Both the position numbers and the translations under genes were made by a program. Positions 652 through 64,000 of a DNA stretch of 64,000 bases are shown piece after piece. The stretch covers positions 10,675,831 through 10,739,830 of the forward strand of contig NC_057751.1 in the NCBI RefSeq assembly GCF_004010195.1, written 5' to 3'. The stretch comes from Chiloscyllium plagiosum (taxonomy: Eukaryota). The notes below the pieces were generated by a model. The model was not told the origin of the DNA. It worked only from the letters and a program-made list of their open reading frames with translations, and searched no databases. Each line of letters starts with the position of its first letter. Within the stretch, counting starts at the first letter, position 1.

Positions 652-746
652 AGGCGCTTTCTCGATCGTCCGCAGATGCGTGAAGCTGTCAACAGGGCAA
701 GAATATGCAGCGAAAATCATTAACACCAAAAAGCTGTCTGCTCGAG
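652..746 (+). CDS. CAMK2D: CaMKII coding exon 2 (Gly-rich loop and AAK lysine of the kinase N-lobe)
   Basis: Pyrimidine tract plus ccag| acceptor. The 95 nt read (K)[31 protein letters not shown](D) in phase with exon 1. Donor is G|gttggt at 747. Confidence 0.95.
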
Positions 747-3244
747 GTTGGTAGATGTAAATGCTTTTATTGCAGTCCCCCCCCCCCCCCCCCGGACATT
801 TTCTTTTGGGGAGGCTGTGGGCTACAGTGGGAATGAAGCAGCTGTCAGTCTGTATCCACCCATCTCCGCCGTCTCAAAGCTAGTGACAGCCAAGCGACGC
901 TCAAACGCAGCCTCTCCTTCTCATCTGTCGGGATGTGATCATGTTTATGACACACACGTCAGAAATGCTCCTTAGCCCATTTTTTATTTGTTCCTCGGGT
1001 TTGTTTTTCTTGCCCGTTCGCGATTCAGTCACAATTTTAAAAGTGTGGTTGTCTATTCCCTTATATGTTTCAATTTGCACCTTAAATTTAAATTGGTAGC
1101 AATATTCGGCGAGGACAGGGCTTTGGTGGGAGAGAGTGTGTCAATCTCTCGTCTACAACTTGTTACAGTGTCACCCAGTTGGACACGGTTTTTTTTTTGA
1201 CTGGAGCTATTTTGACTGCAGATTGGTTGCAGCATTTGGTTTTCGCATTGCTTTTTATGACGAATGCAATTCTAAAAATGGTATGAAAAATATTAGGGGC
1301 CGAGCATTTCGTGAAACCTTCCACACGTGCACACCGAAAATAATCGGGATCGTTCATTTTTTTTTCAAATCTGTCACTGAAAGTACCTTGGTTCCTGGTG
1401 CAGGAAGATCTCTGTGGTGCTGAGATTAGACGGTGCTCATTAATCAACAAGCATTTTAAAACGTTGGCTTCAACTCTCATGAATTGGAGGTGGGGGTTAG
1501 GAAACGGAAATCTCTTGGTCGAGACGCATGACCGGGCTCATTCATCTCCCAGTTTCTCGTTCCTCGCCCAGTAGATGGGTTTGTTTAGCTGATCACACAG
1601 AGATCATGTGCTCGCCATGTCTGCGTGACAGTGCAGTCTTCTGGAACTAACCTCTCGAAGGTGCCTGCCCAGATTCGTTTCAGGAGGCGTTAACAAAATA
1701 CGGTCCTTAGAAGTGGGTTTCTGGCGTAGCCTGCCAATTTCAAACGATCTGTGTCAGTCGTGGTGTTTTTTGTATAAAAAAAAGGGTTGTGGAATAAATT
1801 GGACCAAATAAAACCTAGTTCTTGTTCAGAGTTAATAAGTGAATGATAGTTCATGATTCCCTTCAATTCCCTCACTTCACAAGTCTGTCGTCAGTACACC
1901 GTGCCTTGCTTCCAAGGCAGTCGCAGGCCTTCTGACAGGGTCTGCACTGGTTGTTTTGAATCATGTGTCGAGAGCAGCATTAAGTTATTGCTTTTTTGCC
2001 ATTTGTGTTTTTGTGGGTAGCACCAGACACAGGGAGAGGTCCCAGGGGAAGGGAGTATAGCACATCGCCCACATTGGTCGCATTGCAAGCAGCAGACTGA
2101 TTTCAGAGCAGAGTTTTGTTGTACAGTGTGATGGAGTGATGAAGACCATTGTATGCTCTATGCAAATAATCAGATTCTCAAAGCTCTCATCCTGCCGAGG
2201 GTTCAGTTTCTTTCTGTGTAAAATGGTAAATGCAGTTTATCTGGCAAGACATAGGTCCTGGTGAGATTCAGGCAGGGGAACTAAAGGTGTGGTCAAATAC
2301 CTGCTTTTGAGGTGCTTTCAAAAGGGTGTTGAAAGGTGATGGATGAGGAATATTCCAGATGTATGGAGCGACATGGGTCAGGATGTAAGAGAGGGTACAC
2401 TGATGTGAAAGCTGGCCAGCAAATTCACAGCTGGACCTGTTGATGTTTCTCAAAGTTATTCGCATGTGGTTCTATCTGTAAACATTAAAAACTACTTGAG
2501 GGAGGAGGAGATCTCTCTTTCATCGATCTGTTGCCTTTATGTTACTTGATCACATTGGCTGCATTCTGCACAATGCATTATTTTTGTGTGAATTACAATT
2601 TGACCTCCGGTATGAGGAAATGCAAGTGCTGTGCCAACTGGCATTTCACACCCTCCAAGCGCAGTTGTCGGGTATCGAGGTACAATTGTAATTGGTGTGT
2701 TGACAGAGGAAAGACTTTGCTGTGGGATATTGAAATGTCACATAGTTGGTGCAGTTAACTTCGAATTATCTCCACCACTGAACAAGGGTCTACCAAAGTT
2801 CAATTTCATTTGCAATTCACCAAAATCTTAACAGAATGCAAAACCTGGACTCTTGTAAAACCTTTTGAGCTCCACGAGACTTGCAGCTGTGCATTGGCTT
2901 CACTATCTCAAAGGCATGAAGGAGAAGATGTCTATCTAATGGCTTTTGACTGTTAAGGCAAAGAGGAGAGATGAGAACACGACAAGGTACAGCCCTGTTG
3001 GTTAATCATGTGTTAATATTAATTTTTCTGAGCTCCCCTCTGAGAAGTGGACACTTGGGTCTGGTTTTGGAGAGCAGCTGGAACTCCAGCACCTTATTTG
3101 AAGACTCATTGGGTGCAACTAAACTTCAACAGGGGTCTTCTTTCATCCTGGAGGAGAAAGTGAGTCTGCAGATGCTGGAGATCAAAGTTGAAACTTTATT
3201 GCTGGAACAGCACAGCAGGTCAGGCAGCATCCAGGGAACAGGAG

Positions 3245-3280
3245 ATTCGACGTTTCGGGCACAGGCCCTTCTTCAGGAAT
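3245..3280 (-). ncRNA. Minimal type-I hammerhead ribozyme motif
   Basis: Reverse complement reads ATTC-CTGAAGA-A-GGGC CTGT GCCC-GAAA-CGTC-GAAT, with intact core, stem II and stem I. Confidence 0.85.
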
Positions 3281-3815
3281 GAGCAGAGAGTGTTCAGCAG
3301 GAGAAGAAGAGCTTCTGTGCAGAGGAGATGACCTGGGGTGTGCAGTGAGAGAGGGACTCACTGAGATCTTTGTAGAGAGAGGATGCTGCCTGGCCTGCTG
3401 TGCTTTTCCAGCACTGCACTTTTTGACTCTTTCCAAGACAATGGGAATTTTTCATTGTTGTTTAGCATACAGTTCTATCATACATCAATGAAAATGCAAT
3501 ACGTGAAGGAGCTAATTACGTAGCTTCCTTGCATGAAAGAAAGAGGAATATAATTACATACTAACCAGGAGAAAAATAATAAGTTATGATTTAAGAAACT
3601 GAAATAAAATTTAAAAATAGGAAAATGTTAAATTCAAAAGAAATCAAGAAAAGATAGTTTTTAAAAAACTCTTTCGAGTCCTTGTTACGTTTTAAATGGA
3701 CACTACAGTTGCTTATCTTCGAGGAGAAAGTGAGGTCTGCAGATGCTGGAGATCAAAGTTGAAACTTTATTGCTGGAACAGCACAGCAGGTCAGGCAGCA
3801 TCCAGGGAACAGGAG

Positions 3816-3848
3816 ATTCGACGTTTCGGGCACAGGCCCTTCTTCAGG
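3816..3848 (-). ncRNA. Hammerhead motif with truncated stem I
   Basis: Same core and stem II as 3245-3280, but most of the 5' stem-I strand is removed by the inversion junction at 3848/3849. Confidence 0.65.
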
Positions 3849-4086
3849 GCCTGGCCTGCTGTGCTGTTCCAGCAATAAAGTTTCAACTTTGATCTCCAGC
3901 ATCTGCAGATCTCACTTTCTCCTCGAAGATTTCAACCTACTGCGAATCCTCTTACAAGGATGCCTTCCTTGAAGAAGCTCTCTGCCTCTCTCTACAAAGA
4001 TCTCAGTGAGTCCCTCTCTCACTGCACACCCCAGGTCATCTCCTCTGCACAGAAGCTCTTCTTCTCCTGCTGAACACTCTCTGCTC

Positions 4087-4122
4087 ATTCCTGAAGAAGG
4101 GCCTGTGCCCGAAACGTCGAAT
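4087..4122 (+). ncRNA. Minimal type-I hammerhead ribozyme motif, sense to the host gene
   Basis: ATTC(4087-90) CTGAAGA(4091-97) A GGGC-CTGT-GCCC GAAA(4111-14) CGTC GAAT(4119-22). The predicted cut is after GUC (C4118). Stem III is only the ACGU palindrome, as in PLE hammerheads that act as dimers. Confidence 0.88.
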
Positions 4123-5449
4123 CTCCTGTTCCCTGGATGCTGCCTGACCTGCTGTGCTGTTCCAGCAATAAAGTTTCAACTCTTCTTTCATCCTGGCAAG
4201 CTCACTTCACCATCAAGTTTTCGTGAGGCTGTGGAGAAAATTTCTTGGAATAGCCTATCTCAATATTTTTGCAAATCATCCAACAGTGATGTTTTATAGT
4301 ATCTCAGAATAGATAAGAAAAATAAATGAGTGAGTCAAAACTGTCCTGTCAATTTGTAACTACCCTCTCACCGGAGAAAGACTGGACAGTGAAATAAAGG
4401 GACAAGCTGCTGAAAGCACATGTTAGTGCAGGATGTTCTTGTTGTAGTTACGTGACCAGTAATGTTGACTGCTGTAAAAGCTGAATAATAATGCTTTTTT
4501 CCACATGAATTATATGAATAAACTGAAGTTTTTCTAAGGTCGTAACACAGTTACAGGAAGTGGCACTGCAAATTAGTTATAAAATTCTGTTGGATAGTCA
4601 ATGCCAAGGAATGATAGAGATGCAAAGAGGAAGTAGTTGAAAGCCAATTTTCTTATGTTCACTATGAGGTTTAATTTTCATTGGGGTTAGAGCTTCCCTG
4701 TGATTTGCCCCATTAGTCATTTTCCCAAGTCCAAGCTTGGCTAATGAGTACTGTCAGCCCCAGGCCCCAATCATTTATCTTAATGATATGAAGAATGAAT
4801 TTTACTGTTGTGAGTAGGATGTCTTGGACACTGTAGATAATCAAGGAGAGCAGCTTACATCCCTGACAATCTCTGATTTGTTTGTATTGTATCCAGACCT
4901 TTGTGCAAGGTTGGATAAATGAAGCAAACTTCTTCATGGAAATGAGCAGATTGCAGTTGAACACTACAAAAGTCTTCATTCCCAGCTGAAATATTTCTGA
5001 CTGGGAAAGTCAGCTCTTGCACTTCGCCTCTTGAAGTTTGGATCACAAGGTAACAGCCAAGAGCAGAAACGTTTCTTCTGCCCCCATTCTTTCTAGTTCA
5101 CAGCCATTGGGCCATTTGCAGAATCCCTGCATTTGTACTGGTGAGACCCACCGAACTGAGCATTGAGCATGGATTACAAACATTGTGAGCTGCCTTGTCT
5201 ATGCATGCATGCAGTGTGCCATTTCGCTACTGAGTATTGATGGAGTTGGCTTTGTTTAATGTACCTCAGAAAGCCAGTTGGTGAAGGATAATATAGCAGC
5301 TAATCTTTATCCTTATTTATTTACAGACATCAAATTGTAAGGACACAGTAACTTAGATCACAACTTTGATTTTAGTCGATATCTATTTACAAGGTTTCAA
5401 ATGAATATCAAATATTTGCAAGCAATTGATGTACAATTACGGATTCATT

Positions 5450-8744: not shown

Positions 8745-8912
8745 TTGTGTTCGCAAGTTTTGAGAAGATTTGTAGCTCAGGTTGAGGTTCTGGATGTAAG
8801 TTTGCTCACTGAGCTGGAAGGTTCATTTCTAGACGTTTCGTCACCCTACAAGGTAATATCTTCAGTGGGCCTCCAGGCGAAGCACTGCTGATCATTCCTG
8901 CTTTCTACTTAT
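8745..8912 (-). mobile_element. PLE-type terminal fragment (second type) carrying a hammerhead motif at ~8828-8869
   Basis: Reverse complement reads CCCA-CTGAAGA-T-ATTACC TTGTAG GGTGAC-GAAA-CGTC-TAG. The surrounding sequence is unrelated to the main terminus family. Confidence 0.65.
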
Positions 8913-12051: not shown

Positions 12052-13573
12052 CTAGAACTAGAACTCTGTCGGAAGCTCGAGAAGCGATTGCTGGGCCTCT
12101 TGTTGAGATATTTGTATCATCGATAGTCACAGGTGAGGTGCTGGAAGACTGTTTAAGAAGGGTGGTAAGGACAAGCCAGAATAGTATAGACCAGTGAGCC
12201 TGACATTGGTGGTGGGCAAGTTGTTGGAGGGAATCCTGAGGGACAGGATGTATGTGTAATCGGAAAGGCTAAGACCGATTAGGGATAGTCACCATGGCTT
12301 TGTGCATGGGTAATCGTGTCTCACAAACTTGATTGAGTTTTTTGAAGAAGTAACAAAGAAGATTGATGAGGGCAGAGCAGTAGCTGTGATCTATATGGAT
12401 TTCAGTAAGGCGTTTGGCAAGGTTTCCCTTGGGAGACTGATGGCCAGTTTAGGTCTCACGGAGTACAGGGAGAACTAGCCATTTGGATAAGAACTGGCTC
12501 AAAGGTAGAAGACAGAGTGTGCTGGTGGAGGGTTGTTTTTCAGACTGGAGGCCTGTGACCAGTGGAGTGTCATAAGGATCGGTGCTGGGTCCTCTACTTT
12601 TTGTCATTTACATAAATGATTTTGCGAGCATAAGAGGTATAGTTAGTAAGCTTGCAGATGACACCAAAATTGGAGGTGTAGTGGACAGCGAAGAAGGTTC
12701 CCTCAGGTTACAACAGGATCTTGACCAGATAGGCCAATGGGCTGAGAAGTGGCAGATGGAGTATAATTCAGATAAATGCGAAGTGCTACATTTTGGGAAA
12801 GCAAATCTTAGCAGGACTTGTACACTTTATGGTAAGGTCCTAGGGAGTGTTGTTGAACAAAGAGACTTGGGAATGCAGGTTCATAGCTCCTTGAAAGTGG
12901 AGTCGCAGGTCGATAGGATAGTGAAGAAGTCATTCGGTATGCTTTCTTTTATTGGTCAGAGTATTGAGTACAGGGGTTTGGAGGTCATGTGGCAGCTGTA
13001 CAGGACATTGGTGAGGCCACTGTTGGAATATTGCATGCTATTCTGGTCTCCTTCCTAAGGGAAAGATGTTGTGAAACTTGAAAGGGTTCAGAAAAGATTT
13101 ACAAGGATGCTGCTAGGGTTGTAGGATTTGAGCTACAGAGGGAGGTTGAATAGGCTGGGGCTATTTTCCCTGGAGCGTTGGAGGCTGAGGGGGTGACCTT
13201 ATAGAAGTTGACAAAATTATGAGGGGCATGGATAGGGTAGATATGTAAAGACTTTTCCCTGGGGTCGGGGGATCCAGAGCTAGAGGGCAAAGGTTTAGGG
13301 TGAGAGGGGAAAGAGATATAAGAGACCTAAGGGGCAACCTTTTCACGCAGAGGGTGGTACGTGTATGGAATGAGCTGCCAGAGGAAGTGGTGGAGGCTGG
13401 TACAATTGCAACATTTAAAAGCATTTGGATGGGTATAGGAATAGGAAGGGTTTGGAGGGATATGGGCCGGGTGCTGGCAGGTCGGACTAGATTTGGTTGG
13501 GAAATCTGGTCGGCATGGACGGGTTGGACCGAAGGGTCTGTTTCCATGCTGTACATTTCTATGACTCTATAAC
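12052..13573 (+). mobile_element. 5'-truncated CR1 (HER1-like) LINE with disrupted RT
   Basis: Peptides LGPLLFVIYINDF, SKLADDTKIGG, KCEVLHFG, LYRTLVRPLLEYC and FTQRVVRVWNELP. The 3' tail is ggaccgaagggtctgtttccatgctgtac..ctatgactctat. Stops and frameshifts are present. Confidence 0.93.
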
Positions 13574-21409: not shown

Positions 21410-24400
21410 GGCCACATTCTGAAGCAGACTCGTTACCACAGCCACATCTCCTTCCTCAATGCCTGCCTGCGGAACTGAACTGTTCCCGAATGGACTCTGG
21501 ACTATATTCAGACCATCACATTTTGGACCTGTTCAGGACGACAGCTACCTACAGCAAATCCAAAGCCTTCAGAAACGGTTCTCCCTCTGGATCATCCGTT
21601 CCATGTTCGCAGCTATGCGCATCCGTGTGTCACCACCTACTCTCCCTGTAGTCAGCCTTGCGTCAGCTCAGGGCCACACTCTCCCAGACGTGCAAAGGAC
21701 CTTTGCTATTCTTCATCCTGAGAAGAATTCACACACTCAACAAATGCTTTCTCTCTACCGTATCGAACATTGGGGAACATTGGGGAACTAACCTTCATGT
21801 ACTTACCTCCAAACTCCCTCAATCATCCCAGAGGCTTCTCCCGGCCTCTGGAACCACTCGGACATCATGAGGCATGCGGCAGCTCCAGGCACCACCACCA
21901 AACGCTGCCATCACTTCTGTCCCACTGCCCCATAGACTGCAGCCACCGCCAACAATACCATCTCTGTGATCACCGGCAAGACAACCGCCTTTTCAACCGC
22001 TGCAAGAACCACTGCCGCTGAAACCACCCTGGAGTCTCCTCGGCATGTCACTTTCATTCCAATAGTTGCCGCCGCCGCAGCCACTTCCACCCCCCCATTG
22101 ACTACACTCACTGGAACACTGTAGATGACACTGCGAACATCATGTGTTATGTCACTTCTGCCCCCCTGACTACCCCCCAGGGTGAGGGTCACTTCTGTTG
22201 GTGACATTACCCACAATCCCATAACCACACCCACTCCAGAGACAGTCTCCACCCCACACTCCCAGTTCCAGCCCCACACCAGCTCCTATCTCCCAGCCCT
22301 GCCATGTTTTTAACCATCACCCCAGATCTCCCCCTCACTGAGGATGAATGATCAGACCTCACCTTCATCCCCCTATGCTCCCGAATCAATGAATTCAACA
22401 CGTGTTGGACATTGAAATGTTCTTCCGCCGCCTCTGCCTCCATGCTTACTTTTTCCATCAGGACTCCCACCCATTCTTCAAGGACCCTTCTCCTGTCTCC
22501 AACGCACCTCATCCACCTGGACACCCTGTGCTGGTCTGTTATCTGCCCTCGATCTCTTAATTTCTAACTGCCACCATGACATTGACTATCTCAACCTGTC
22601 CACCCCCTCACCCACTCCAACCTCTCACCCTGGCAATGTGCAGCCATCCACTCCCTCTGCTCCAATCTCAACCTCACCATCAAACCAGTGGACAAGAGGG
22701 GCGCGGTGGTAGTTTGGCGCACCAACCTCTACATCGTTGAAGCCAGGCACCAACTCGTGCCACCCCCTCCTCCTGTCCCCTTGACCACGACTTCATCTCC
22801 CATCACCAAACCATTATCTCCCAGGCTATCCACAACTTCATTACCTCAGGGGATTTCCCACCAACTGCCTCCGACCTCATAGTCCGGGAACCCCGAACCG
22901 CCTGGTTCTATCTCCGACCCAAAATTCACAAACCTGACTGCCTTGGTGGACCCATCATCTCAGCCTGCTCCTGCCCCACCAAACTTATTTCTGTACATCT
23001 TGACACAGCCCTGTCTCCCTTGGTCCAGGATCTCCCCACATACGTTTGGGACACCAATGCCCTCCACCTCCTCCATGATGTTCATTTCTCCAGCCCCTAA
23101 CGCCTCATCTTCACCATTGACATCCTGTCCCTGTACGCATCCATCTGCCATGATGAAGGCCTCCAAGCCCTCCATTTCTTCTTCTCCTGGTGACCCCACC
23201 AGTACCCTTCCACTGACACACTCATTTAGTTAGCTGAAATGGTCCTCGCCCTCAACAGTTTCTCCTTCAAATCCTCCCACTTCCTCCAAACCAAAGGGGT
23301 AGCCATGGGTACCCACATGGGTCACCGTTTTGCCTGCCTCTATGTCAGGAACATGGAACAGTTCACATTTCGCAGCTACACCGGCATCATTCCCCACCTT
23401 TTCCTCCGCTCCATCAATGACTGTATCGGCGCCACCTCGTGCTCTCACAAGAAGGTTGAACAGTTTAACAACTTCACGAACACCTTCCACCTCGATCTCA
23501 AGTTCACCTGGACCATCTTGGACACCTCCTTCCCTTTCCTGGACCTCTCCATCTCCATTTCTGGCAACTGACTCAACACAGACTTCAAACCTATCGACTC
23601 CCACAGCAATCTGGACTACGCCTCCTCCCGCCCTGCCTCCTGTAAAAACACAATTCCTCCGCCTCCGTCGCAGGTACTTCCAGGAGGACAAATTTCACCA
23701 CAGAACATCCCTGACAGCTTCCTTCTTCAAACATCACAATTTGTCCTTTCAAGTGGTCGACAGTGCCCTTCAGCACATCTTCTCCACAGTGCACATCCGC
23801 CCTTGAATCTCACCCCTCCCAATGCAACTTGGACAGAAACCCCCCCCTCCCGTCCTTGCCTCCCATCCCAACAACCTCCATATACATTGCATCATCATCC
23901 GCCATTTCTACTTGCTACAAACAGACCCCACCACCAGGGATATATTTCCTTCCCCAACCCTAATCTGCATTCTGTAGAGACCATTCCCTCTGCGACTCCC
24001 TTATTAGGTCCACATCCCCCAGCAACCAGCCCTCCACTCCCAGCAACTTCCCCTGCCACCACCAGAATTGCAAAACCCGTGCCCACACCATCCCCTTCAC
24101 CTCTGTCCAAGGCCCCAAAAGGATCCTTCCACATCTGACAGAGATTTACCTGTACTTTCACACACATCATCTACTGTGTCCGTTGCTCTCAATGTGGTCT
24201 CCTCTACATCGGGGAGAGGGGATGCCAACTTGTGGAATGTTTCTGAGAACATTTCTAGGACACACGCATTAAACAATTCCACCACCCTGTGGCCGAACAC
24301 TTTAATTCACCCTCCCACTCCACCAAGGACCTGCAAGTCCTGGCTGCTTCCACTGCCAAACTCTAGCCACCCGATGCCTCATCTTCTGCCTTGGGATCCT

Positions 24401-24721
24401 CCAACCACACAAGATAGAATGTGGATTTCACCAATTTCCTTATTTCTCCTCTCTCCACCTTATCCCAGCTCCAACCCTCCAACTCGGCACTGCCTTCTTG
24501 AACTACCCTCTCCACCCTCCTCTCTGACCTATCACCTTCACCCCCACCTATCGCGTTCCCACCTTGCTTCCCACCCAGTCCCACCCCCCTTCCCATTTAT
24601 CTTTCAGCCCCCTTGTGCCACCCCCTCATTCCTGATGAAGAACTTATGATCGAAACATCAACTCTCCTGCTCCTCAGATGCTGCCTGACTGGCTATGCTT
24701 TTCCAGCATCACGTTGTTTGA
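21410..24721 (+). mobile_element. Near full-length decayed Penelope-like retroelement, Neptune-type (RT + GIY-YIG)
   Basis: Disrupted ORF with DKRGAVVVW, FYLRPKIHKP, FTIDILSLY, QTKGVAMGT, FLRSINDC (YIDD position) and FPFLDL, a Cys linker CHHQNCKT, and the GIY-YIG motif IIYCVRCSQCGLLYIGE at ~24166-24216. The 3' terminus has a hammerhead remnant. TSD CTCCTGTAACA at 21399-21409 and 24722-24732. Confidence 0.92.
24628..24663 (+). ncRNA. Degraded hammerhead motif in the 3' terminus of the long PLE
   Basis: ATTC-CTGATGA-A-GAACTTATGATC-GAAA-CATC. The core is present, but stems I-III carry mismatches. Confidence 0.6.
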
Positions 24722-25401
24722 CTCCTGTAACAAACCAATGAATCATTATACTCCGCAGTATCGAGCTATGGTGTACAGATCACTGGCAGATGTTTCTGAG
24801 GTGATCAATGGAGCAGGCATTTGATACACTGAAAGTGGATTGAAGTTTCCTTAACCAGGGAAATAGAATGCTCCAACCAGCTTCCTAGTTACAAGGTCAT
24901 AAATTGGTGACTCCTTCTGTTCTTGGGAAAATAGACAAATGGAAAGTGTTGATGTCCAAATGCAGTAGCAGTAATTTGGAAGGCAGCAGATATGTTGGCC
25001 TTGATTGTAATAGAATTTGAGTACAGGAGTGAAGATATCTTGCGTCAATTGTACAGAATCATTGTGAGGTAGTGTCCTGGAGTATTGTGTACAATTTTAG
25101 TCCTCATCTCAAAGGAAGGATGAAGTTGCACAAAGGGAGTGCAGTGGAGTCTCACGAAGCTAATTCCTGGAATGATAGGACTGACCAATGTGGAGATATT
25201 TTCGCAGGGTTTGCCTTCATTCTGCAGAGTTGAGAATAACGTGAGGTGACCTCATTGAAATGCACAAAATTTATAAAGGCTCATCACAATGGACGCAGAC
25301 AGTATTTTTCCCTGAATGGGGAGTTTTTCTCTTCGAGGGAACAGTCTCAGAATAAGGGGCAAGCCATTGTGTTTCATGTTCATTGGCATGAGGATGTCTC
25401 T

Positions 25402-25534
25402 AGGTAAAAACAATGACTGCAGATGCTGGAAACCAGAGTCCAGATTAGAGTGGTGCTGGAAAAGCACAGCAGTTCAGGCAACATCCGAAGAGCAGGAAAA
25501 TCGACGTTTCGGGCAAAAGCCCTTCATCAAGAAT
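25402..25534 (-). mobile_element. Solo PLE terminus with hammerhead motif (core C-to-U)
   Basis: Reverse complement of 25499-25534 reads ATTC-TTGATGA-A-GGGCTTTTGCCC-GAAACGTC-GATT. Same variant as 42808-42907. Confidence 0.8.
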
Positions 25535-29440: not shown

Positions 29441-30040
29441 CAGTCTGGTGTAATCAGCAACCTGAAGCACAGCTGGTCTATCCAATAGGATCCTCCATGG
29501 ATGCCATTGGCAAGAGCAGGACTTTGTATCAGTCTCCAATTGTCATTGCAAGGGCACCTTCTTGAATGACTACATTGTTTTGTATTTTATTGTTTTGGAA
29601 GGAAGTTGAGTGGTCATTAGGCCATTTCAGAGTCATCCATTCAGCAGGTTACCTGGAGTCATGTATTGACCAGAGCTGGAAGAATGAAGCAGATGGACTT
29701 TTCTGGCAGTCCTGTAGTTTCATGGTCACCATTGCTGGTACTTGTTTTTTGAATATCAAAGAATTCATTGAATTTTAGGTCTCCACCTGCACTGATTTCA
29801 AAAGCGTACTCCTCTGTATATTCCAGTCAGTGCCCAGATTTCTTAAGGACATTGAACTGAACGACCTAAAAGGCGGAGAAAGTGAATGGACTTAAAAGAT
29901 TAAATAGGAACTGTATGCTGATTTTAATCTTGATTATTTTGAAAAGCTGCAAGCAGATCTTCAAGTGCAAATGGTTCTTCAGGTTCTGTCAAATAGTTCG
30001 TCAGATTCTGAGTGACCTCCACTCATACACTTTCATTCTA

Positions 30041-30136
30041 ATTTCTGATGAAGGGCTTATGCCCGAAACGTCAACTCTTCAGCTCCTCAGATGCTGCCTG
30101 ACTGGCTGTGCCTTTCCAGCACCACACTCTTCAACT
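30041..30136 (+). mobile_element. Solo PLE terminus beginning at a hammerhead motif
   Basis: CTGATGA(30045-51)-A-GGGCTTATGCCC-GAAACGTC(30065-72), then the same terminal sequence as 24660-24721. Stem I is weak. Confidence 0.82.
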
Positions 30137-30625
30137 ATGTATTTTTTCCTGCTTTACTTGGCATAGCTGGACTGAAATGGTGTGATATGCCACAGTTTTA
30201 GTTTCTCAATTTACATTCTGTTTCTGCAGCTCTGCAGAAAGTAACACCCAGTTCCTTCAATTGACCAGTGCTAAACACAGGCCAAAAGGAAAACCCTTGC
30301 TTTCCTACAATGATTGGCAGCCATTTCAACACATTCTGTGTTTTGTGATTCAATAAGGTTTCTTCTGACTTTGTTTCTGAGTTTTGATGAGTTTATTTTG
30401 AGCCAGAGAATAACTTCCCAGCACACACTCAGAGCATTACTCAGATGTTTCCTTGTGTAGCATCACCTAATGCTGTGCCTCAGCTGAAACACTCTTCCTG
30501 CCTTTTGTAACACACAGACTTCACTGTTCCAACAGATTCCAATGGCCTCACAAGTTCCATCCTCTGCAAAGTTGAGGTCATTCAAAAATCTGTGGCCCAA
30601 ATTGTAACTTGCACAAATTTCCATT

Positions 30626-30744
30626 TGGAGAAAGTGAGGACTACAGGGATGCTGGAGGTCAGAGTTGAAGCTTGAAATGTTGATTCTCCTGCCCTTTGGA
30701 TGCTGCCTGATAGGCTGTACTTTGCCAGCACCACACACTTCAAA
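30626..30744. mobile_element. Mini PLE insertion (inverted tail + plus-strand terminus)
   Basis: ggagaaagtgaggact.. on the left and a plus-strand terminus on the right. TSD AAAT(T/G)TCCATT at 30615-25 and 30745-55. Confidence 0.7.
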
Positions 30745-30948: not shown

Positions 30949-31126
30949 AGGAGAAAGTGAGGACTGCAGATGTTGGAGATCAGAGCTGAAAAATGTGTTG
31001 CTGGAAAAGCGCAGCAGGTCAGGCAGCATCAAAGGAGCAGGCGAAGGACTCATGCCCGAAACGTCGATTCTCCTGCTCCTTGGATGCTGCCTGACCTGCT
31101 GCGCCTTTCCAGCAACACATTTTCAG
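30949..31126. mobile_element. Mini hairpin PLE insertion
   Basis: Inverted arms at ~30983-31041 and ~31072-31128, with a partial hammerhead in the loop. TSD CTTTTGT(A/T)TATT at 30937-48 and 31127-38. Confidence 0.85.
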
Positions 31127-34100
31127 CTTTTGTTTATTGGACCATATTGGTCGTCAAGCCTTTCGCTGCCGAGGTCCTCACCTCCGAGTTCTTGCCCCAA
31201 ATTTCTTTGCCTTTTGCTTTTCTTTCCTAATTTAGGGTATTTGTAAAAGCTGCTTTCTGTCAACAAGCATTTTGGTCATTTTGTCTCTGATCTCCTCATG
31301 TGGCTTGAAGTTCCATTGTATGGAACTTTGCCAGTTTTGCTTTTTATGTAAATCATCTTTGTAAGTCTGTCCTTAAAAACCTGAATAAAAACACTGTTTA
31401 AACTTTGGCTTCACTGAAGGATGTTGTTATTTGCAAGAGTCGATGTTTGGGATCTGACCAGCTCCCTGAGCTATTTCCTTAAGAAAGCACGACTTTCTGC
31501 AACTTGGAGCTTCTGTAGATTTAATGTTTGAAATAAATTATGTTTTGCCGTAGTGCATTGGGAGCCATTTTCACAAATGGCTTAACTTAACCCCTAAAGC
31601 TTACCATTGACATACCTGGTTTGCTGTATCTTTGGCAGTTACGTAATCCTGATGCTTTGTTGCATTGCTTGCAGTCAATAAATGAATCCTTTGATTGATT
31701 TCACCCAAAATTCTCGTCCTTTGGGTGTCATTATTTCTGGTTGACGCATTGAAACATTAAAGTTGAAGTCAAATCCTGTTGCTCTAATCCTGCTTCTCGA
31801 TTGTTGGATAATCCTAAGTGACTTTCACATCCTGTGCACATTTATTGCAACACAGCTTCTGCTGCACATGGGGTGAAGTATGTTCAGCAGAAGTTTGTGG
31901 AACTTTGTGAAAGAGAGAAAGCTTTGTTTTGAAGAAAACCCCTTCTTTCATTGACCTCTCCCAATTCCACCATTCCCTACCAATGCCACTTAAGTGTTTG
32001 TGCCCGCAGATTAAGAACCCAAGTGTTGAGAACCACGATAAGCTTGATAAGCTGCTTGCAGTTTTAAAGTGAATGTGAAATGCAATAAATAATTGGTGTC
32101 TGTAAAGTGGTTATGGAGCATTCAGATTTTTTGTGAAAGCACAGCTTTGAGGAAAGGTGATCTGTTGTCATTATCCAGTCTAATATCTTGGTGAGGCTAG
32201 TCCTGCATGAATGTGGGCTGCTGTTTAACTGAACTGGTCCAGCAAGTATCTGTTAATTAAACTGTAGCAGCAGTTGAAGAGTGTGGTCGCCATCACATCA
32301 GCAACAAATTCTAGCCTTGCAAACTGAATCCAACTTCTGAGTCTTTATAAATATACCTTGATGGAAATATCACATCTTACTTTATTGCATACTTTGTATT
32401 AATCCAGGAGAGTAGGGTTAAAACCGTTTAAAATTGAGAATCTAGTTTTTTTTAAAGAAAATCTGAAAAGGAAATGTTGATGTGTGTAAAAGTGGCCATG
32501 AACCTATTGAGTGACCATCATGATCTGTGTGTCAGTTATGGGTTTATCATGAAAGGTGAAGTAAGCCAATGTTGCAGACTCAGTGTAATGAACAAGTTCC
32601 TGTTGAAGCTAAAATCCTAGGTTAGTGTCACAGAACTGAATGTAAACCTTCTGGGGTGGGGTTTGGTTGTTCACCTCTTCAAAGAGGTTGGACAGAGAGG
32701 ATAAGTTTTTGGAACGTAAGTTAACAGTCTGGGTAGATCAAAAGATGTTTCCCTGTCTTTGGTTGTCATTTATTATCTACATAATGCCCTGAGTGGGGGT
32801 GGGGGGCTTGTTAGCTTGACACTTACTGTATATCAGTTGTGAGGATCTCCCTCCTGAATAGCAATTTGTTGTCTCGACACACACAGCATTTGTAAAAGAC
32901 AGCTCACCATCATCTTCTTGAGGACGATTATGCGCAGGTACTAGATGTAGCCTTGCCATTAGCATGCACATCCCATGATTGCCCAAAAGAAGTATTTCTG
33001 TTGTCAGATGAGTTTGCCTTGAAAACGGAGAATGGTCGCAACACCTGGGTAATAGATGGCTGTTGACACAACAGAGCTGTACCCCAACACAGATCAACAG
33101 TTTGATCGAACAAAATGATCTGGAAAGAGTGAGAATAGTATTTTTTTAAAAAAAAGACCTTCCCTGTTTCCTTTTGAGAACCAATAGATCAACTCCGTGC
33201 CCCTTCACAGTGCCTCAGCTGAGGGAGGGTGAAGTTTCCCAGTGTTCCATTGTGCTGTAGGCAACATTAGGAGTTGTGAGAAACAGGTAGAGATACCAGA
33301 AATACTTGGTTCTATTATGGAAAGGTTGGAAGTTGTGATGGGTTTCTGACAGTTACTGAAGAACAAGTAATGAGAAATGTTGACAGAAGAAAATAGTGAT
33401 CGCAGTAAGGTTTGTGCACAGGAAGTGCATATACCCTACATTAGATTTCTAATTACTTACAGCTAGTTGAGAGTTAACCGAAGTGGTTTACAGGAAGGAA
33501 ATTGCCAGTGCCTCATATACTGTTTACACAACTCAACCAAATTTTGGTGCCGAGTGAAGGGTCTAGGGTCAGACTGGATTCAGCAGGGTTTGTTCAGTCA
33601 GCACCATCAGAACTGATAAAAGTTGAAGATTAGTTCAAGTATTCATTTCGTATTTCAGGTAGACATGAAACAGACATTTGGCACAGCATACAAATAGACT
33701 CAAGACTGTGTTTCCGCTTTTTAGTCAACATCAGTTTGTTTGCAATTGTTAAAAAAGTTGTGGAATTCACTTAGACTTGAATTTTGAACACTTGGAGAAG
33801 AGAGTGGCAACACTGTATCTGCTTTTGCAGTGTCGGATATACTTTATCAGCAACAGACTTTTGGAAGTCCAGACGTATGTGAAGAGTGCTCCCCTCATCT
33901 ACTTAGTCCATTATTTCATACAAAAAATTTGTGAAATTGAATGAATAAAGTGTTTTGAAAATCTTCAATCTTGTTTGATTGATCCACCTTTATTGATATG
34001 TGAAGTGTTAGATCAATAACCAGCAAACCTAAATTTCAGTGCACATTATGTGATGTGCTACAGGAGGCGAGTGGAACTATTCATCTCGGGAATCTTGGAA

Positions 34101-42702: not shown

Positions 42703-43099
42703 AACAAAAATGCAATTCAACTGAAACATGTTGGGAATGCGAAGGGAGATGCTTGGAGCTGTCAGTTGCTCACTCATTTTCTGCGTAACAGTCTTATATC
42801 TGTTAAGAGAGTCAAAATTAGAGTGGTGCTGGAAAAGCATAGCAGGTCAGGCAGCATTTGAGGAGCAGGAAAATCGATGTTTCGGGCAAAAGCCCTTCAT
42901 CAGGAATCCCTTTTGTCCGAAACGTTGATTTTCCTGCTCCTCGGATGCTGCCTGATCTGCTGTGCTTTTCCAGCACCACTCTAATTTTGACTTTCTTAAC
43001 AGATATAAGACTGTTACGCAGAAAATGAGTGAGCAACTGACAGCTCCAAACATCTCCCTTCACATTCCCAACATGTTTCAGTTGAATTGCATTTTTGTT
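42703..43099. repeat. Long imperfect palindrome (190-bp arms, 17-bp spacer) centred on PLE termini
   Basis: 42703-42892 is the reverse complement of 42910-43099, with 10 transition mismatches by my count. Confidence 0.93.
42872..42907 (-). ncRNA. Hammerhead motif at the palindrome centre
   Basis: Reverse complement reads ATTC-CTGATGA-A-GGGCTTTTGCCC-GAAA-CATC-GATT. Stem III shows CpG decay. Confidence 0.7.
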
Positions 43100-57344: not shown

Positions 57345-58550
57345 GCAATTAGGGTTAAGGAAAATCCAAAGCGATTCTACAAGTGCGTTGAGGACAAGAG
57401 GGTAACTAGGGAGAGAACAGGGTCCTTAAAGATAAACAAGGCCACATATGTGTGGAATTGCAGGAGATGGGGTAGATACTAGATGCATATTTTGTGGAGC
57501 AGGATATGGAGGATACAGAACATGGGAAAATAAATAATGACATCTTGAAAAATGTCCATTTTACAGAGGTGGAGATGCTGGATGTCTTAAAACACATAAA
57601 TGTGGATAAATCCCCCAGAACCTGATCATGTGTACCCTAGAACTCTGTGGGAAGCTGGGGAAGTGACGGCTGGGCCCCTTGCTGAGATATTTATATCAAT
57701 AGTCACAGGTGAGGTGCCCGAAGACTGGAGGTTGGCTGACGTGGTTCCACTATTTAAGAAAGGTGGTAAGGATGAGCCAGAGAACTATAGACCGGTGAGC
57801 CTGATATTGGTGGTGGGCAAGTTGTTGGAGGGAATTCTGAGGGGCAGGATTTACATGGATTTGGAAAGGCAAAGACTGACTCGGGATAGTTAACATGGCT
57901 TTGTGTGTGGGGAATCATGTCTCATTAACATTATTGAGTATTTTGAAAAAGTAACGAAGAGGATTGATGAGGGCAGACTGGTGGATGTGATCTTTATGGA
58001 CTTCAGTAAGGCGTTCAACAAGGTTCCCCAAGGGTGACTGGTTCGCAAGGTTAGATCTCATGGAAGAGTTCAGAAAAGATTTACAAGGATGTTGCCAAGG
58101 TTGGAGGGTTTGAGCAATAGGGAGAGGCTGAATAGTCAGGGGCTGTTTTCTCTGAGATTCGGAGACGGAGGGTGACCTTACAGAGGTTTATAAAAGCATG
58201 AGGGACATGGATAACGTGAAGAACTAAGGTCTTTTTCCCAGGTGGGTGAGTCCAAAACTAGAGGGCATAGATTTAGGGTGAGAGGGAAAAGATTTAAAAG
58301 GGACCGAGAGGGGAACCTCTCCATGCAGAGGGTGGTGTGTGAATGGAATGAGCTGCCAGGGAAAGTGGAGGAGGCTGGTTTAGTGAAAACTTACGAAAGG
58401 CATTTGGATGGGGATATGAGTAGGAAGGGTTTATAGGGATACGGGCCAAATGCTGGCAAATGGGACTACATTTATTTCTGATATCTGGTCGGCATGGATG
58501 AGTTGGACCAAAGGGTCTGTTTCCGTGCTGTTTTTTTCTGTGACTATCTG
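57345..58550 (+). mobile_element. CR1 LINE with a large internal deletion near 58065
   Basis: ORF piece VPEDWRLADVVPLFKKGGKDEPENYRPVSL. The sequence jumps from gttagatctcatggaa to gagttcagaaaagatttacaagg, skipping the RT core present in the 12-13.6 kb copy. Confidence 0.9.
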
Positions 58551-58624
58551 ACTCAGGTTATACTTAGACCATCTGCTTTTAAACACATCCGCCATGTGGA
58601 ACAGATTCTCACAAAGTCCCCTGT

Positions 58625-60390: not shown

Positions 60391-61151
60391 TTACCCTCGA
60401 GTCACCTGGTACTTGACCTGTGGCCAGCCAAGTTTTATAAGTATATACCAGAGCCCCAGCAATCTCCTCCCGGAGCAGCCTGGGATATAGCTCAGGGGTT
60501 GATGTATAATTCTTATGTATTCATAAGGACTGCTCTGAGCCGTTTTGAATTCTCCATGGTCACCTGGACTGATTGAGTCGTAAAGAAATGTACTGACCCA
60601 CAGATTCTAGATGACTCAATTAAGCAATTGGCGTTATTGGTTGTTAATTGTGCTGCATGGGTAGTCAATTTTTAGTTTCTAAATTGGTTTCTCATTTGTT
60701 CTGTCAGGTGGGATAATGGAAGAATCTGGGATGTTGTCACCTTTTGCCAAAACAGAAACAAGAATTGTGTTATAAAGCAAAGGCTGACCTCTTTTCCCAA
60801 CTCCCCACACCCCATCCCTCCCAACCCCTCACTCTGAGAATTAAAATGGAATCACTCAAAGGGAAGTGCCTGACTCTGCAATCTGTAAAAGGTGTATGAG
60901 AAGGGGTGTATGTAACCTGTTTTCTCAGCCACATCTAATGGTTAAATAAAAGAAATCCCGGACACTCAGTTTACAGTCAACAAATGACAATATATTCATC
61001 TGACTTTAACAGTGAACAAATTAATTAAACTGTTAACAAATCATGTAAATCCCTTCTCTCCTATTCCTGAATAAAACACAAATATAAGCCTCACTTACAT
61101 ATTTTTTTTAAAAAGTTTAGTTTCTCAGAATTATAGCCAGGCGACCATGTC

Positions 61152-61757
61152 ATACAGTCATAGAGATGTACAGCATGGAAACAGACCCTTCGGTCCAACC
61201 TGTCCATGCCGACCAGATTTCCCAACCCAATCTAGTCCCACCTGCCAGCACCTGGCCCATATCCCTCCAAACCATTCCTATTCATATACCCATCCAAATG
61301 CCTCTTAAATGTGGCAATTGTACCAGCCTCCACCACATCCTCTGGCAGCTCATGCCATACACGTACCACCCTCTGCGTGAAAAAGTTGCCCCTTAGGTCT
61401 CTTTTATATCTTTCCCCTCTCACCCTAAACCTATGCCATCTTGTTCTGGATTCCCCCACCCCAGGGAAAAGTCTTTGCATATTTACCCTATCCATGCCCC
61501 TCATAATTTTGTAAACCTCTATAAGGTTACCCCTCAGCCTCTGACACTCCAGGGAAAACAGCCCCAGCCTGTTCAACCTCTCCCTATCGCTCAAATCCTC
61601 CAACCCTGACAACATCCTTGTAAATCTTTTCTGAACCCTTTCAAGTTTCACGATATCTTTCCGATAGGAAGGAGACCAGAATTGCACGCAATATTCCAAC
61701 AGTGGCCTAACCAATGTCCTGTAGAGCCGCAACATGACCTCCCAACTCCTGTAATCA
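61152..61757 (-). mobile_element. Young 5'-truncated CR1 3' end
   Basis: Uninterrupted frame 61232-61735 (LYRTLVRPLLEYCVQFWSP...FFTQRVVRVWHELP). It is closely similar to the reverse complement of ~12970-13570. Confidence 0.93.
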
Positions 61758-63084
61758 ATGTCTTGTGGAACTGTGTCTTCTTTGTTGAATTTGTGTCTGG
61801 AGGGTTCTCTCTGTGACTTCTTCTGTCTGGAATATTAGCTGTGTGCCGCGGTGCCTTTATTAATGAGATGGTGCTTTTTCTAAGAGCTGAGAGTTATTAT
61901 CTCTTAGCAAATGGCAGTTGGCTGCCTCTGGATTTTTCAACTTCCCCTTTCTTTTATTACTTTGATGATGTATCAATATTTTTACAATCATGTTGATCCT
62001 ACGCTGTCAAAACCATCAGATGTAAATTTGACAGCTTTTTGTTATCTAAGGATCTGATTTAAATTGACTGGGTAAATTTAAAAGCTGTTGTCTTGATAAA
62101 ACTGCTGTTTGGTCTTTTGATAGCAAATGTTTCAATTGGAGTGCTCTTGGTGCACCTGCGAAGCCCCCCAAGCTGCCACAAATCCATTTTTTAAAAGTTC
62201 AAAACACAGAATAAAACACCATCTTTTAAAGCAGCCGTGCAATGCTTTCTCCATTTTACAATTTTACATAAACCAACTTTGCAACACTTGTTAAAATGAA
62301 ACTAACCGAGCATAAAAATTGAACATTAAAATCATTTTTCATTTTACGTTTCGTGCCACATGTTCTGGTGAGGGGGTTTGCTCCTTTGGGAGCAGCTGCC
62401 AGATTTCCCCTGCAGTGACAATGGTATTAAGTGTTGAATTCAAATTATCGATATGTGCATGATTTTGAGACCCTGCACTTCTCTCTGTAAAAAGCAACTC
62501 TTTCAACACTTGTTGCAATCGCTTTGCAATTGCTACTTGAATAACACAACTGAAAGCTCAGGATATTTAAAACTGGGATGATTTGAAGCCAGGCTTTGAA
62601 CCTTATCATTGATGAATCTGGAAGAGAATCTGGAGCTTTGGACTGTTTAGTAAGTTGGTTGTCCTGATGGTTTTTCTTTGTCATTAGAAGAAACTTCAGA
62701 TACTCAGGGCTGTATCTTCTTATTTTGGCTAATTATGCCATGCATGAGCTTTTGGAGCGATGGGTACTTGCAGCATTATCACATCTCCTTAACTATCTGT
62801 CCCAGCTTTGTAGTATCCCTTGTGTTCAATCCTATCCCCAACTTACCATGCACCATTGCCAGAAAAACTTGCAACTCTCTGGGAATCCGCAAGATTGGGG
62901 TAAGGTATTGGCAGGTAAAGGGATGCCTGGCAGTGAGAGGCTTTCAAAAGGGCGATAACGAGAGTTTAGGGACAGAATGTTCCTGTTTGAGTGAAGAGCA
63001 AATCTTACATGAATAAGGGATATTAGATTACTGAAGATATTGAGACTCTCGAGAAACAGGAGACGTGCCACTTATTGTTTAAAT

Positions 63085-63700
63085 GAATTATGGGCTCAAG
63101 TCAATTCTTTGAGGAGTATAGGATGTAGGAGTACACTTATGAGGGAAATCAGAAGGGCAAGAAGGAGACATAGGATAGCTTTGACAGATAAGGTTAAAGG
63201 GAATCCAAAGGGATTCTACAAGTTTACTAAGAGTAACAAGGGAGAGAATAGAACCCCCAGTAAATGAATGAGGCCATTTCTATATAGAACCACAGAAGAT
63301 GAATGCAATCATAAGCAAATACTTACATCAGTATGTACTGTGGTGAAAGACGTGAGTTTTACAAGGATATTACTGAAACTGGGGGTTTTGAGCTGTAGAG
63401 AGAGGTTGGGACTTTGTTCCCTGGATCAGAGGAGGCTTGGGGGTGACTTTACAGAGGTTTATAAAATGATAAGGGGCATGGATAGGGTGACTAGCCAAGA
63501 TTTTTTCCCCAGGTTACCAGAGTCCACAACGAGAGGGTATAGATTTAAGGTGAGAGGGCAAAGATTTAAAAGGAACCGAAGGGGCAACGTTTTCACGCAG
63601 AGGGTAGTGCATTGAAATGGGACTATTTCAGCTACAACAATCTGGTCGGCATGGATGGATTGGGTCAAAGGGTCTGTTTCCATGCTGTATGTATCTGTGG
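63085..63700 (+). mobile_element. CR1 fragments joined by internal deletions
   Basis: Peptides DKVKGNPKGFYK and QRRLGGDFTEVYKMIRGMDRV, with tail gggtctgtttccatgctgtat. Confidence 0.8.
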
Positions 63701-64000
63701 CTCTGGAAGTGAAAAATTGGGTCATGTCAGTGTGGAGTTGACCTGCATACCTGCATATATTTACCTCAGACATGGCAGACGAGGGGAAATTGGCATCCAC
63801 TTTGCAGGCAGGGAGGTGTTGCTGGATGGGGTGGTGCAGATATAGGTGCCCCAGGACCAACAGTGGAGGTCACACCGCTAAACCGTGCCAGCTTGTTGGG
63901 AAGTTGCCAACTGGGTGAATGTGCGGTACTATACCAGGAAGGTTAATGATTGCCATGATTCCATTAATATAAGTGATAGCATCTTCTCTCTGATACCTCT

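What the first reader, a model, noticed from the sequence alone, without database searches (positions are those of the whole stretch)
3136..4196. Single TSD-flanked 1-kb insertion built from five segments, including ~285 bp of captured non-element DNA
Seen: a 16-bp direct repeat brackets 3152-4180 (one base at each end could belong to the element). Inside, orientation flips three times. An AT-rich segment (3431-3714) with no visible element similarity directly follows a terminus fragment of a different subfamily (3381-3430, ..cttttccagcactgcactttttgactct). Inference: the RT switched template onto a read-through transcript from another PLE locus and carried its 3' flank into the CaMKII intron, i.e. 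PLE-mediated transduction through the shared terminus.
Basis: partly seen in the sequence, partly recalled or inferred. Interest (0 to 1): 0.7.

Follow-up and report, generated by a model that had tools for sequence, protein, structure and literature searches.

The report
Penelope insertion carrying distant host DNA
A very young jumping-gene insertion has copied a 284-base piece of non-coding DNA from elsewhere in the genome into an intron of a CaMKII gene; public sequence data show both the unoccupied site and the source locus, making it a well-traced example of a kind of capture already described for these elements.

Summary
The anatomy is real. An exact 16-bp duplication brackets 1,029 bp: inverted arm A, old terminus B, AT-rich segment C (284 bp), inverted arm D, forward unit E. 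A, D and E are 97.5-100% identical copies of a 293-bp internally deleted Penelope-like element.

Contigs from 3 of 4 laid runs (one conspecific, two of a relative about 4% diverged) match the left flank to exactly 3151 and then run on without A. In the same 3 runs, B+C lies on a separate contig that continues into other DNA without D. So C is foreign here and the B-C junction is ancestral: capture is supported.

That donor allele was not seen, and no listed contig spans the insertion's own junctions.

Capture between Penelope terminal repeats with a target duplication is published (PMC3846280). The cargo is non-coding. Verdict: new member of a known kind.

The parts
3136..3151 (+). Left copy of the target-site duplication (14-16 bp)
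   Evidence: Exact repeat of 4181-4196, two copies in the window; empty-site contigs stop matching at 3151
3152..3382 (-). Segment A: inverted arm of the young mini-element, starting at the tail end; includes an intact hammerhead (3280-3245) and the deletion junction
   Evidence: 3186-3382 is 100% complementary to 3985-4181; hammerhead descriptor hit; its start equals the commonest terminus position, 3722 in D coordinates, among the listed loose ends of all 4 runs
3381..3430 (+). Segment B: last 50 bp of an older, different-subfamily PLE terminus, copied from the donor locus; shares 2 bases with A
   Evidence: Alignment of 13 termini; joined to C in contigs of 4 of 4 runs, from 3401-3411 onward
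3431..3714 (.). Segment C: captured non-coding host DNA, 284 bp, 28% GC; right boundary uncertain by 1-3 bases
   Evidence: Single copy in the window, no long reading frame; separate donor contigs in X1, X8, X14 continue 811, 263 and 806 nt into non-D sequence
3715..3848 (-). Segment D: second inverted arm, from 7 bases beyond the tail end to the front edge of the hammerhead core
   Evidence: 100% to E's end over 92 nt, 1 indel against A over 134 columns
3849..4181 (+). Segment E: 293-bp unit plus a 40-bp terminal repeat (partial tandem), ending at the pLTR end
   Evidence: 3849-3888 vs 4142-4181, 39 of 40 identical
3889..3923 (+). 35-bp 'tail' within E
   Evidence: Present at the outer ends of A and D, absent at E's right end; fits the 30-40-bp tail of PMC11167929
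3960..4061 (+). First 34 codons of the PLE open reading frame, then a deletion jump to the pLTR
   Evidence: 94% to residues 1-34 of P0001, whose later residues hit the decayed long element at 21410-22554; 16 of the 32 listed contig pieces begin at 3306-3309, 14 of them at 3306, the equivalent of 4061
4087..4122 (+). Minimal hammerhead ribozyme motif, predicted cut after 4118 (activity untested)
   Evidence: Descriptor scan: 3 hits in the window, 0 in 30 base-shuffled windows
4181..4196 (+). Right copy of the target-site duplication
652..746 (+). Context: second coding exon of a CaMKII gene; the insertion lies downstream of it (next exon not located)
   Evidence: phmmer to CaMKII chains, E 8e-13; splice sites read

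Best explanation
A very recent insertion made by Penelope-like (PLE) retrotransposition machinery acting on a non-coding 293-bp deletion derivative, carrying a 334-bp copy (B+C) of another locus. Most likely it arose in two ordinary steps. Step 1: a young copy landed at the donor locus 284 bp downstream of an old PLE terminus, as a usual inverted-arm plus forward-arm insertion (D-E). Step 2: a transcript beginning in the old terminus (B), running through C, D and E, was reinserted at the CaMKII intron. The bottom-strand nick primed at the pLTR end and copied E-D-C-B in one pass. The top-strand nick, about 16 bp away, primed at the tail end and made A. The two cDNAs joined at a 2-base overlap. 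Shown: anatomy, empty site, donor, ancestral B-C junction, youth. Inferred: the two steps, the RNA template, twin priming, transcription from B.
For: Empty site: X1 record 1 (8,750 nt) matches 2500-3151 with 0 differences, then runs on 4,560 nt. X14 record 17 and X8 record 26 also stop at 3151. Only one other record covers the interior of C in each of these runs. If X1 record 1 continues into the right flank it ends at 8756, where another hammerhead-core terminus begins by my reading: indirect support. Donor: B+C on separate contigs without D in X1, X8, X14; 9 differences in 305 nt in the relative, 1 in 302 (X1) and 0 in 317 (X10) in the same species. The two outer ends sit at the tail end and the pLTR end, the two RT start sites found in vitro for a PLE that cuts and extends both strands (PMC11167929). 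There are two head-to-head inversion junctions (A/B, D/E), one per step. PLE-terminus sequence covers only 1.4% of the rest of the window, so a cargo boundary inside an old terminus is unlikely by chance. Two direct plus one inverted pLTR around cargo is the geometry of PMC3846280. The 2 differences of E's first 82 nt from D, and D's 1 indel against A, allow different template copies.
Against: No donor allele bearing D was seen: 3 of 3 runs whose contigs extend beyond C lack it. The fourth (X10) ends at 3717, only 2 bases past where the relative's match stops, which decides nothing. Near-identity of A, D and E needs both steps close in time. No RNA data were laid, so transcription from B is unshown. 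B starts 16 nt and E 23 nt downstream of the predicted hammerhead cut, whereas unchecked earlier notes say most copies in this genome start just upstream of the core. A palindrome at 42703-43099 suggests these elements also copy DNA, which favours the first rival. The insertion's junctions lack independent read support.
Confidence: 0.5

Rival explanations
1. One event engaging two loci. The PLE protein nicked both the CaMKII intron and the donor. The donor's end of C primed D, the CaMKII ends primed A and E, and B+C was copied or transferred as DNA and bridged between them.
For: The donor lacks D in 3 of 3 informative runs. C/D looks like a primer junction with 1-3 shared bases. At 42703-43099 a terminus plus 106 bp of its own flank is duplicated in inverted form (flank arms 104 of 106 identical), which points to DNA-templated copying here. 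B and the start of E share a G found in 2 of 13 aligned termini, and 17 of 17 bases. The PLE endonuclease nicks its own pLTR in vitro (PMC11167929). L1 makes inverted duplications and joins to distal ends (passages of 10.1101/2024.12.14.628481).
Against: It needs four cDNA or DNA pieces and three joins in one event. Only 2 bases guide the jump from A to B. The shared G can also be read as part of a CAGG-G-CCTG snap-back at the D/E junction.
Confidence: 0.25
2. One reading: the RT switched from the young RNA onto a read-through transcript of the old PLE locus (B-C, without D-E) and back.
For: The donor with the B-C junction exists. Template jumps from read-through transcripts are proposed in PMC3846280.
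Against: The switch points are not in terminus homology (A/B 2 bases, C/D 1-3 bases). RT starting at B's end copies away from C (inference from PMC11167929). On the strand that would copy a sense B-C RNA, D is sense and would need an antisense template. D is not a copy of A plus target: its first 7 bases match the unit 7 of 7 and the target 5 of 7.
Confidence: 0.12
3. Assembly chimera: a plain A-E insertion, or nothing, at CaMKII was merged with the donor locus through PLE repeats.
For: No listed contig piece bridges the insertion's junctions in 4 of 4 runs (tables cut), and X10 has no cover at 2710-3129. PLE structures trouble assemblers (PMC8557442).
Against: There is an exact duplication of a 16-mer at the point where empty-site contigs diverge, and both outer ends sit at the family's start sites. 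The A/B and C/D joins have 1-3 bases of overlap, too little for an assembler to merge on.
Confidence: 0.08
4. C is native intron trapped between two independent insertions.
For: A-B and D-E each look like a typical inverted-plus-forward pair.
Against: Neither pair has its own duplication. CaMKII-flank contigs do not hold C, and C lies on other contigs in 3 of 4 runs.
Confidence: 0.02

Closest known systems
Host DNA mobilised between Penelope pLTRs in Adineta vaga (Arkhipova, Yushenova, Rodriguez 2013, PMC3846280; main text read)
   Same: Cargo between two direct pLTRs with an adjacent inverted pLTR, a target duplication and an empty allele. The paper also reports 'a few other cases' of non-coding sequence captured between solo pLTRs with duplications.
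   Different: Here the two direct termini are of different subfamilies and ages, there is an extra inverted arm (D) inside, the donor junction is traced in two species, and the cargo is 284 bp of non-coding DNA in a vertebrate.
Insertion chemistry of Poseidon from Anolis carolinensis (Frangieh et al. 2024, PMC11167929; parts 1-2 of 4 read)
   Same: Both strands are cut and extended; two adjacent internal RT starts define a 30-40-bp tail; the uncleaved hammerhead RNA is the substrate; the ORF's first bases are needed in cis. The mini-element keeps tail, leader and 34 codons.
   Different: That work did not address inversions or cargo in the parts read; nothing was assayed here.
Non-autonomous PLE derivatives / animal non-LTR retrozymes (bioRxiv 10.64898/2026.07.22.740005, part 1 of 5 read; non-autonomous Chlamys, passages of PMC8557442; min-HHR, passages of PMC4209133)
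   Same: Short non-coding unit with a type I hammerhead, derived from a PLE, in partial tandem.
   Different: Only 1.14 units stand in tandem here with one complete hammerhead in E, so the retrozyme criterion of two consecutive complete units is not met; the unit visibly keeps the ORF start.
L1 twin priming and transduction; 5-prime transduction by SVA (twin priming: passages; L1 3-prime transduction: passages of PMC6431247; SVA recalled, no call)
   Same: Inverted 5-prime arm joined at a short overlap; flank DNA moved from a source locus.
   Different: No poly(A); priming at internal sites; cargo lies upstream of the priming element.

Membership tests
Insertion of an endonuclease-bearing Penelope-like element | Partial tandem forming a pLTR, with adjacent inverted truncated copy | tested here: met
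   E repeats its last 40 bp at its start; A and D are inverted arms
Insertion of an endonuclease-bearing Penelope-like element | 30-40-bp tail at one end only | tested here: met
   35-bp tail at the left end (A), none at the right end
Insertion of an endonuclease-bearing Penelope-like element | Minimal hammerhead in the pLTR | tested here: met
   Descriptor hits at 4087(+) and 3280(-), 0 in 30 shuffles; not matched by Rfam; cleavage not assayed
Insertion of an endonuclease-bearing Penelope-like element | Target-site duplication with a single copy at the empty site | tested here: inconclusive
   Duplication exact; contigs of 3 of 4 runs leave the window at 3151, but their onward letters were not shown, so the single copy is inferred
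Insertion of an endonuclease-bearing Penelope-like element | Parent element encodes PLE-type RT followed by GIY-YIG endonuclease | tested here: inconclusive
   P0001 links the unit's 34 codons to the decayed element at about 21410-24724, which ends in the same terminus. RT-like and GIY-YIG-like motifs there are my recognition; Pfam and PDB gave no hit
PLE-mediated capture of host DNA (Arkhipova 2013 type) | Unrelated sequence between pLTRs inside one duplication | tested here: met
PLE-mediated capture of host DNA (Arkhipova 2013 type) | Cargo has a source elsewhere and is absent from the empty site | tested here: met
   Separate donor contigs in 3 of 4 runs; one record only covers C's interior in each run
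PLE-mediated capture of host DNA (Arkhipova 2013 type) | Structure confirmed by independent reads or PCR | tested here: inconclusive
   No listed piece bridges the junctions; tables cut
Non-LTR retrozyme (criterion of bioRxiv 2026.07.22.740005) | At least two consecutive tandem units with complete hammerheads | tested here: not met
   E is 333 bp of a 293-bp unit; no such array found by TRF
Non-LTR retrozyme (criterion of bioRxiv 2026.07.22.740005) | Circular RNA / self-cleavage in vivo | not tested
   No RNA run was laid

The most novel reading that the evidence does not exclude
Either of two readings goes beyond the papers I read. (i) A dead PLE stub of one subfamily and a fresh mini-element of another together turn the DNA between them into a mobile composite. 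With stubs this dense, any short interval between two stubs could move, and such moves would still be segregating in this species. (ii) One PLE complex bridges two chromosomal sites and copies DNA between them. In both cases such alleles would be natural records of how PLE inversions and captures form, an admitted open point.
Probability: 0.3. Interest if true: 0.6.

Novelty: new member of a known kind. Interest (0 to 1): 0.38.

Why it matters
How Penelope-like elements build inverted arms and pick up host DNA is described as undefined (PMC8557442). This case has what most lack: a very young event, an empty allele in the same species, and a traced donor whose old terminus predates a species split. 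One look at the donor allele separates a two-step RNA relay from one-step DNA capture. The cargo itself is non-coding and intronic, and no effect on CaMKII is shown, so the value is mechanistic and modest.

Tried and rejected
No whole genome was held, so the donor could not be placed. It is outside the window and not in the 1,038 nt upstream held by X1 record 1, but a site a few kb further upstream is not excluded.

A 27-base pattern from C found 0 matches in metagenome contigs. Sequence look-ups in earlier findings found 0 look-alikes, and there were 0 notes near this place.

The Rfam mir-15 hits (44 and 41 bits, gathering 57.3) and MIR533 (27 bits, gathering 80) come from the D/E hairpin and are rejected. 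Minimum-energy folding of 4075-4181 was no better than shuffles (z 0.60), so the hammerhead rests on its core motif.

Pfam: 0 hits for the 36-residue ORF stub, no meaningful hit for three stop-free frames of the decayed element (one chance IBR hit, E 0.32), and 0 of 2 for the read-through frames. PDB gave 0. Of 6 protein hits, only P0001, P0004 and P0006 match the window; P0002, P0003 and P0005 were dropped as chance.

The idea that C is a multi-copy repeat is not supported in X1 (depth 4.71 vs 5.14 for the flank). Depths of 15.7 and 5.55 in X10 and up to 15 in X8 are too noisy to count copies. X10's lack of cover at 2710-3129 is no evidence. The idea that B and E begin at a hammerhead cut was weighed: they start 16 and 23 nt downstream, and PMC11167929 found no reads ending at the cut; left as a weak hint.

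Only 4 of 21 listed runs were laid (15 hold the stretch), all contigs, and only 2500-3756 of the locus, so D/E and the right junction were not tested.

Six paper searches listed no paper whose title or abstract start concerns PLE capture in sharks. The library lacks most subscription journals, and no supplements were read; those of PMC3846280 may list its non-coding captures.
Full report
OBSERVATION. The 16-mer at 3136-3151 recurs exactly at 4181-4196 and nowhere else in the window; its per-position chance is 4e-10. One base at each inner end also fits the element. Between the copies lie 1,029 bp: A 3152-3382 (minus), B 3381-3430 (plus), C 3431-3714, D 3715-3848 (minus), E 3849-4181 (plus). 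A is 100% complementary to E over 197 nt, D to E's end over 92 nt, and D differs from E's start at 2 of 82, so these parts are very young. B agrees with E's end at 31 of 33 bases and then diverges. C has no second copy in the window, no long reading frame, and lower GC (28.2%) than all 1,275 sampled windows of its size. The site lies downstream of the second coding exon of a CaMKII gene; I did not locate the next exon.

THE ELEMENT. E is a 293-bp unit plus a 40-bp repeat of its end. It holds a 35-bp tail, a leader, 34 codons, and then a jump to a terminal region with a minimal hammerhead motif (3 descriptor hits in the window, 0 in 30 shuffles). The 34 codons match residues 1-34 of protein P0001 at 94%. 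Residues from 35 onward of the same protein match a decayed long element at 21410-22554, which ends at about 24724 in the same kind of terminus. I recognise RT-like and GIY-YIG-like motifs in its frames, but Pfam and PDB scans gave no hit, so that label is my recognition. Of the 32 listed contig pieces, 16 begin at 3306-3309 (14 at 3306), the equivalent of the jump. The unit is therefore read as an internally deleted, non-autonomous Penelope-like element. Summed contig depth at position 3198, diagnostic of the young terminus, is about 17% of the peak terminus depth in both organism-A runs and 0.09-0.15% in both organism-B runs. The tool warns that depth is no copy number, so this is only a hint of a recent species-specific burst.

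EMPTY SITE AND DONOR. Of 21 runs listed for C, 15 hold part of it, from organisms A and B. I laid 4 (X1, X10 of A; X8, X14 of B) on 2500-3756. Empty site: X1 record 1 matches 2500-3151 without a difference and runs on 4,560 nt unlike A. X14 record 17 (26 substitutions in 652 nt) and X8 record 26 also stop at 3151. X10 has no cover there. The onward letters were not shown. If X1 record 1 continues into the right flank it would end at 8756, where by my reading another hammerhead-core terminus starts, a natural break point; this is indirect support. Donor: B+C lies on different records. X1 record 8 matches 3402-3703 with 1 difference and runs on 811 nt. X14 record 24 and X8 record 32 match 3411-3715 with 9 differences and run on 806 and 263 nt. 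None continues into D. In each of these runs one record alone covers the interior of C. X10 holds 3401-3717 with no difference in two overlapping records, ending 3 bases into D, which cannot tell a shared overlap from a true C-D junction. So C is foreign to the CaMKII site, the B-C junction predates the split of A and B, and at least one conspecific sample lacks the insertion. Against this stands the fact that no listed piece bridges 3151/3152, A/B or C/D, with most rows not shown, and that D/E and the right junction were outside the laid stretch.

MECHANISM. In vitro, a Poseidon-type PLE cuts and extends both target strands and starts RT at two adjacent internal sites that bound the tail, using uncleaved RNA (PMC11167929, parts 1-2 of 4). 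A starts at the tail end and E ends at the pLTR end, so they are read as the two primed products (inference). The target's last 7 bases match the RNA just beyond the tail at 5 of 7. The interior has two inversion junctions: A/B with 2 shared bases and D/E with none evident. D abuts C like an ordinary left junction and is not a copy of A plus target (7 of 7 to the unit, 5 of 7 to the target). The simplest account uses two ordinary rounds: D-E landed next to C at the donor, then an RNA starting in the old terminus B and crossing C, D and E was inserted at CaMKII with A as its inverted arm (0.5). It explains why the cargo boundary falls in an old terminus, which covers only 1.4% of the rest of the window. 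It needs a donor allele with D that 3 of 3 informative runs lack. One-step capture of DNA from a second nicked locus (0.25) fits the empty donors, the G shared by B and E's start in 2 of 13 termini, and the palindrome at 42703-43099, where a terminus and 106 bp of flank appear copied from DNA. Assembly chimera 0.08; native intron 0.02.

COMPARISON. Arkhipova et al. [quoted passage not shown] This case works like that and meets the tested features, except independent confirmation of the structure. It is not a retrozyme by the two-unit criterion. Six searches listed no paper on such capture in sharks. Unchecked earlier notes from this genome report several other PLE-linked captures; they are leads, not support, but suggest the event is not rare here.

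VERDICT. Real by anatomy and by empty-site and donor evidence, unconfirmed at its junctions, a new member of a known kind with non-coding cargo. Its worth is that one look at the donor allele would decide between an RNA relay and DNA capture. Interest 0.38.

Noticed in passing
window 42703-43099: 397-bp palindrome: a tail-less PLE hairpin with 106 bp of flank duplicated in inverted form (104 of 106 identical), no duplication evident at the outer ends; looks like fold-back copying of terminus plus flank.
   Followed up: partly
window about 21410-24724: Decayed, 5-prime-truncated long copy of the parent element with frameshifts and stops, ending in the hammerhead terminus.
   Followed up: partly
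window about 8757-8875, minus strand: A different terminus with a hammerhead core motif read by eye, single in the window; not picked up by my descriptor.
   Followed up: partly
window 25417-25534, 30027-30139, 30627-30730, 30949-31130: Further short PLE termini of older subfamilies, two of them inverted-plus-forward pairs.
   Followed up: partly
window 12576-13573, 58061-58552, 61149-61834, 63380-63702: Dispersed fragments of another repeat with RT-like reading frames (CR1-like by my recollection); 12963-13573 and 61149-61759 are 91% identical.
   Followed up: no
window 3704 (X1 donor contig): The conspecific donor contig stops matching at 3703, 12 bases before the relative's does, suggesting an indel allele at the right end of C.
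   Followed up: no
window 3849-3865: The start of E is identical to B over 17 bases, including a G absent from the other 11 aligned termini; either templated from B or a junction snap-back.
   Followed up: partly
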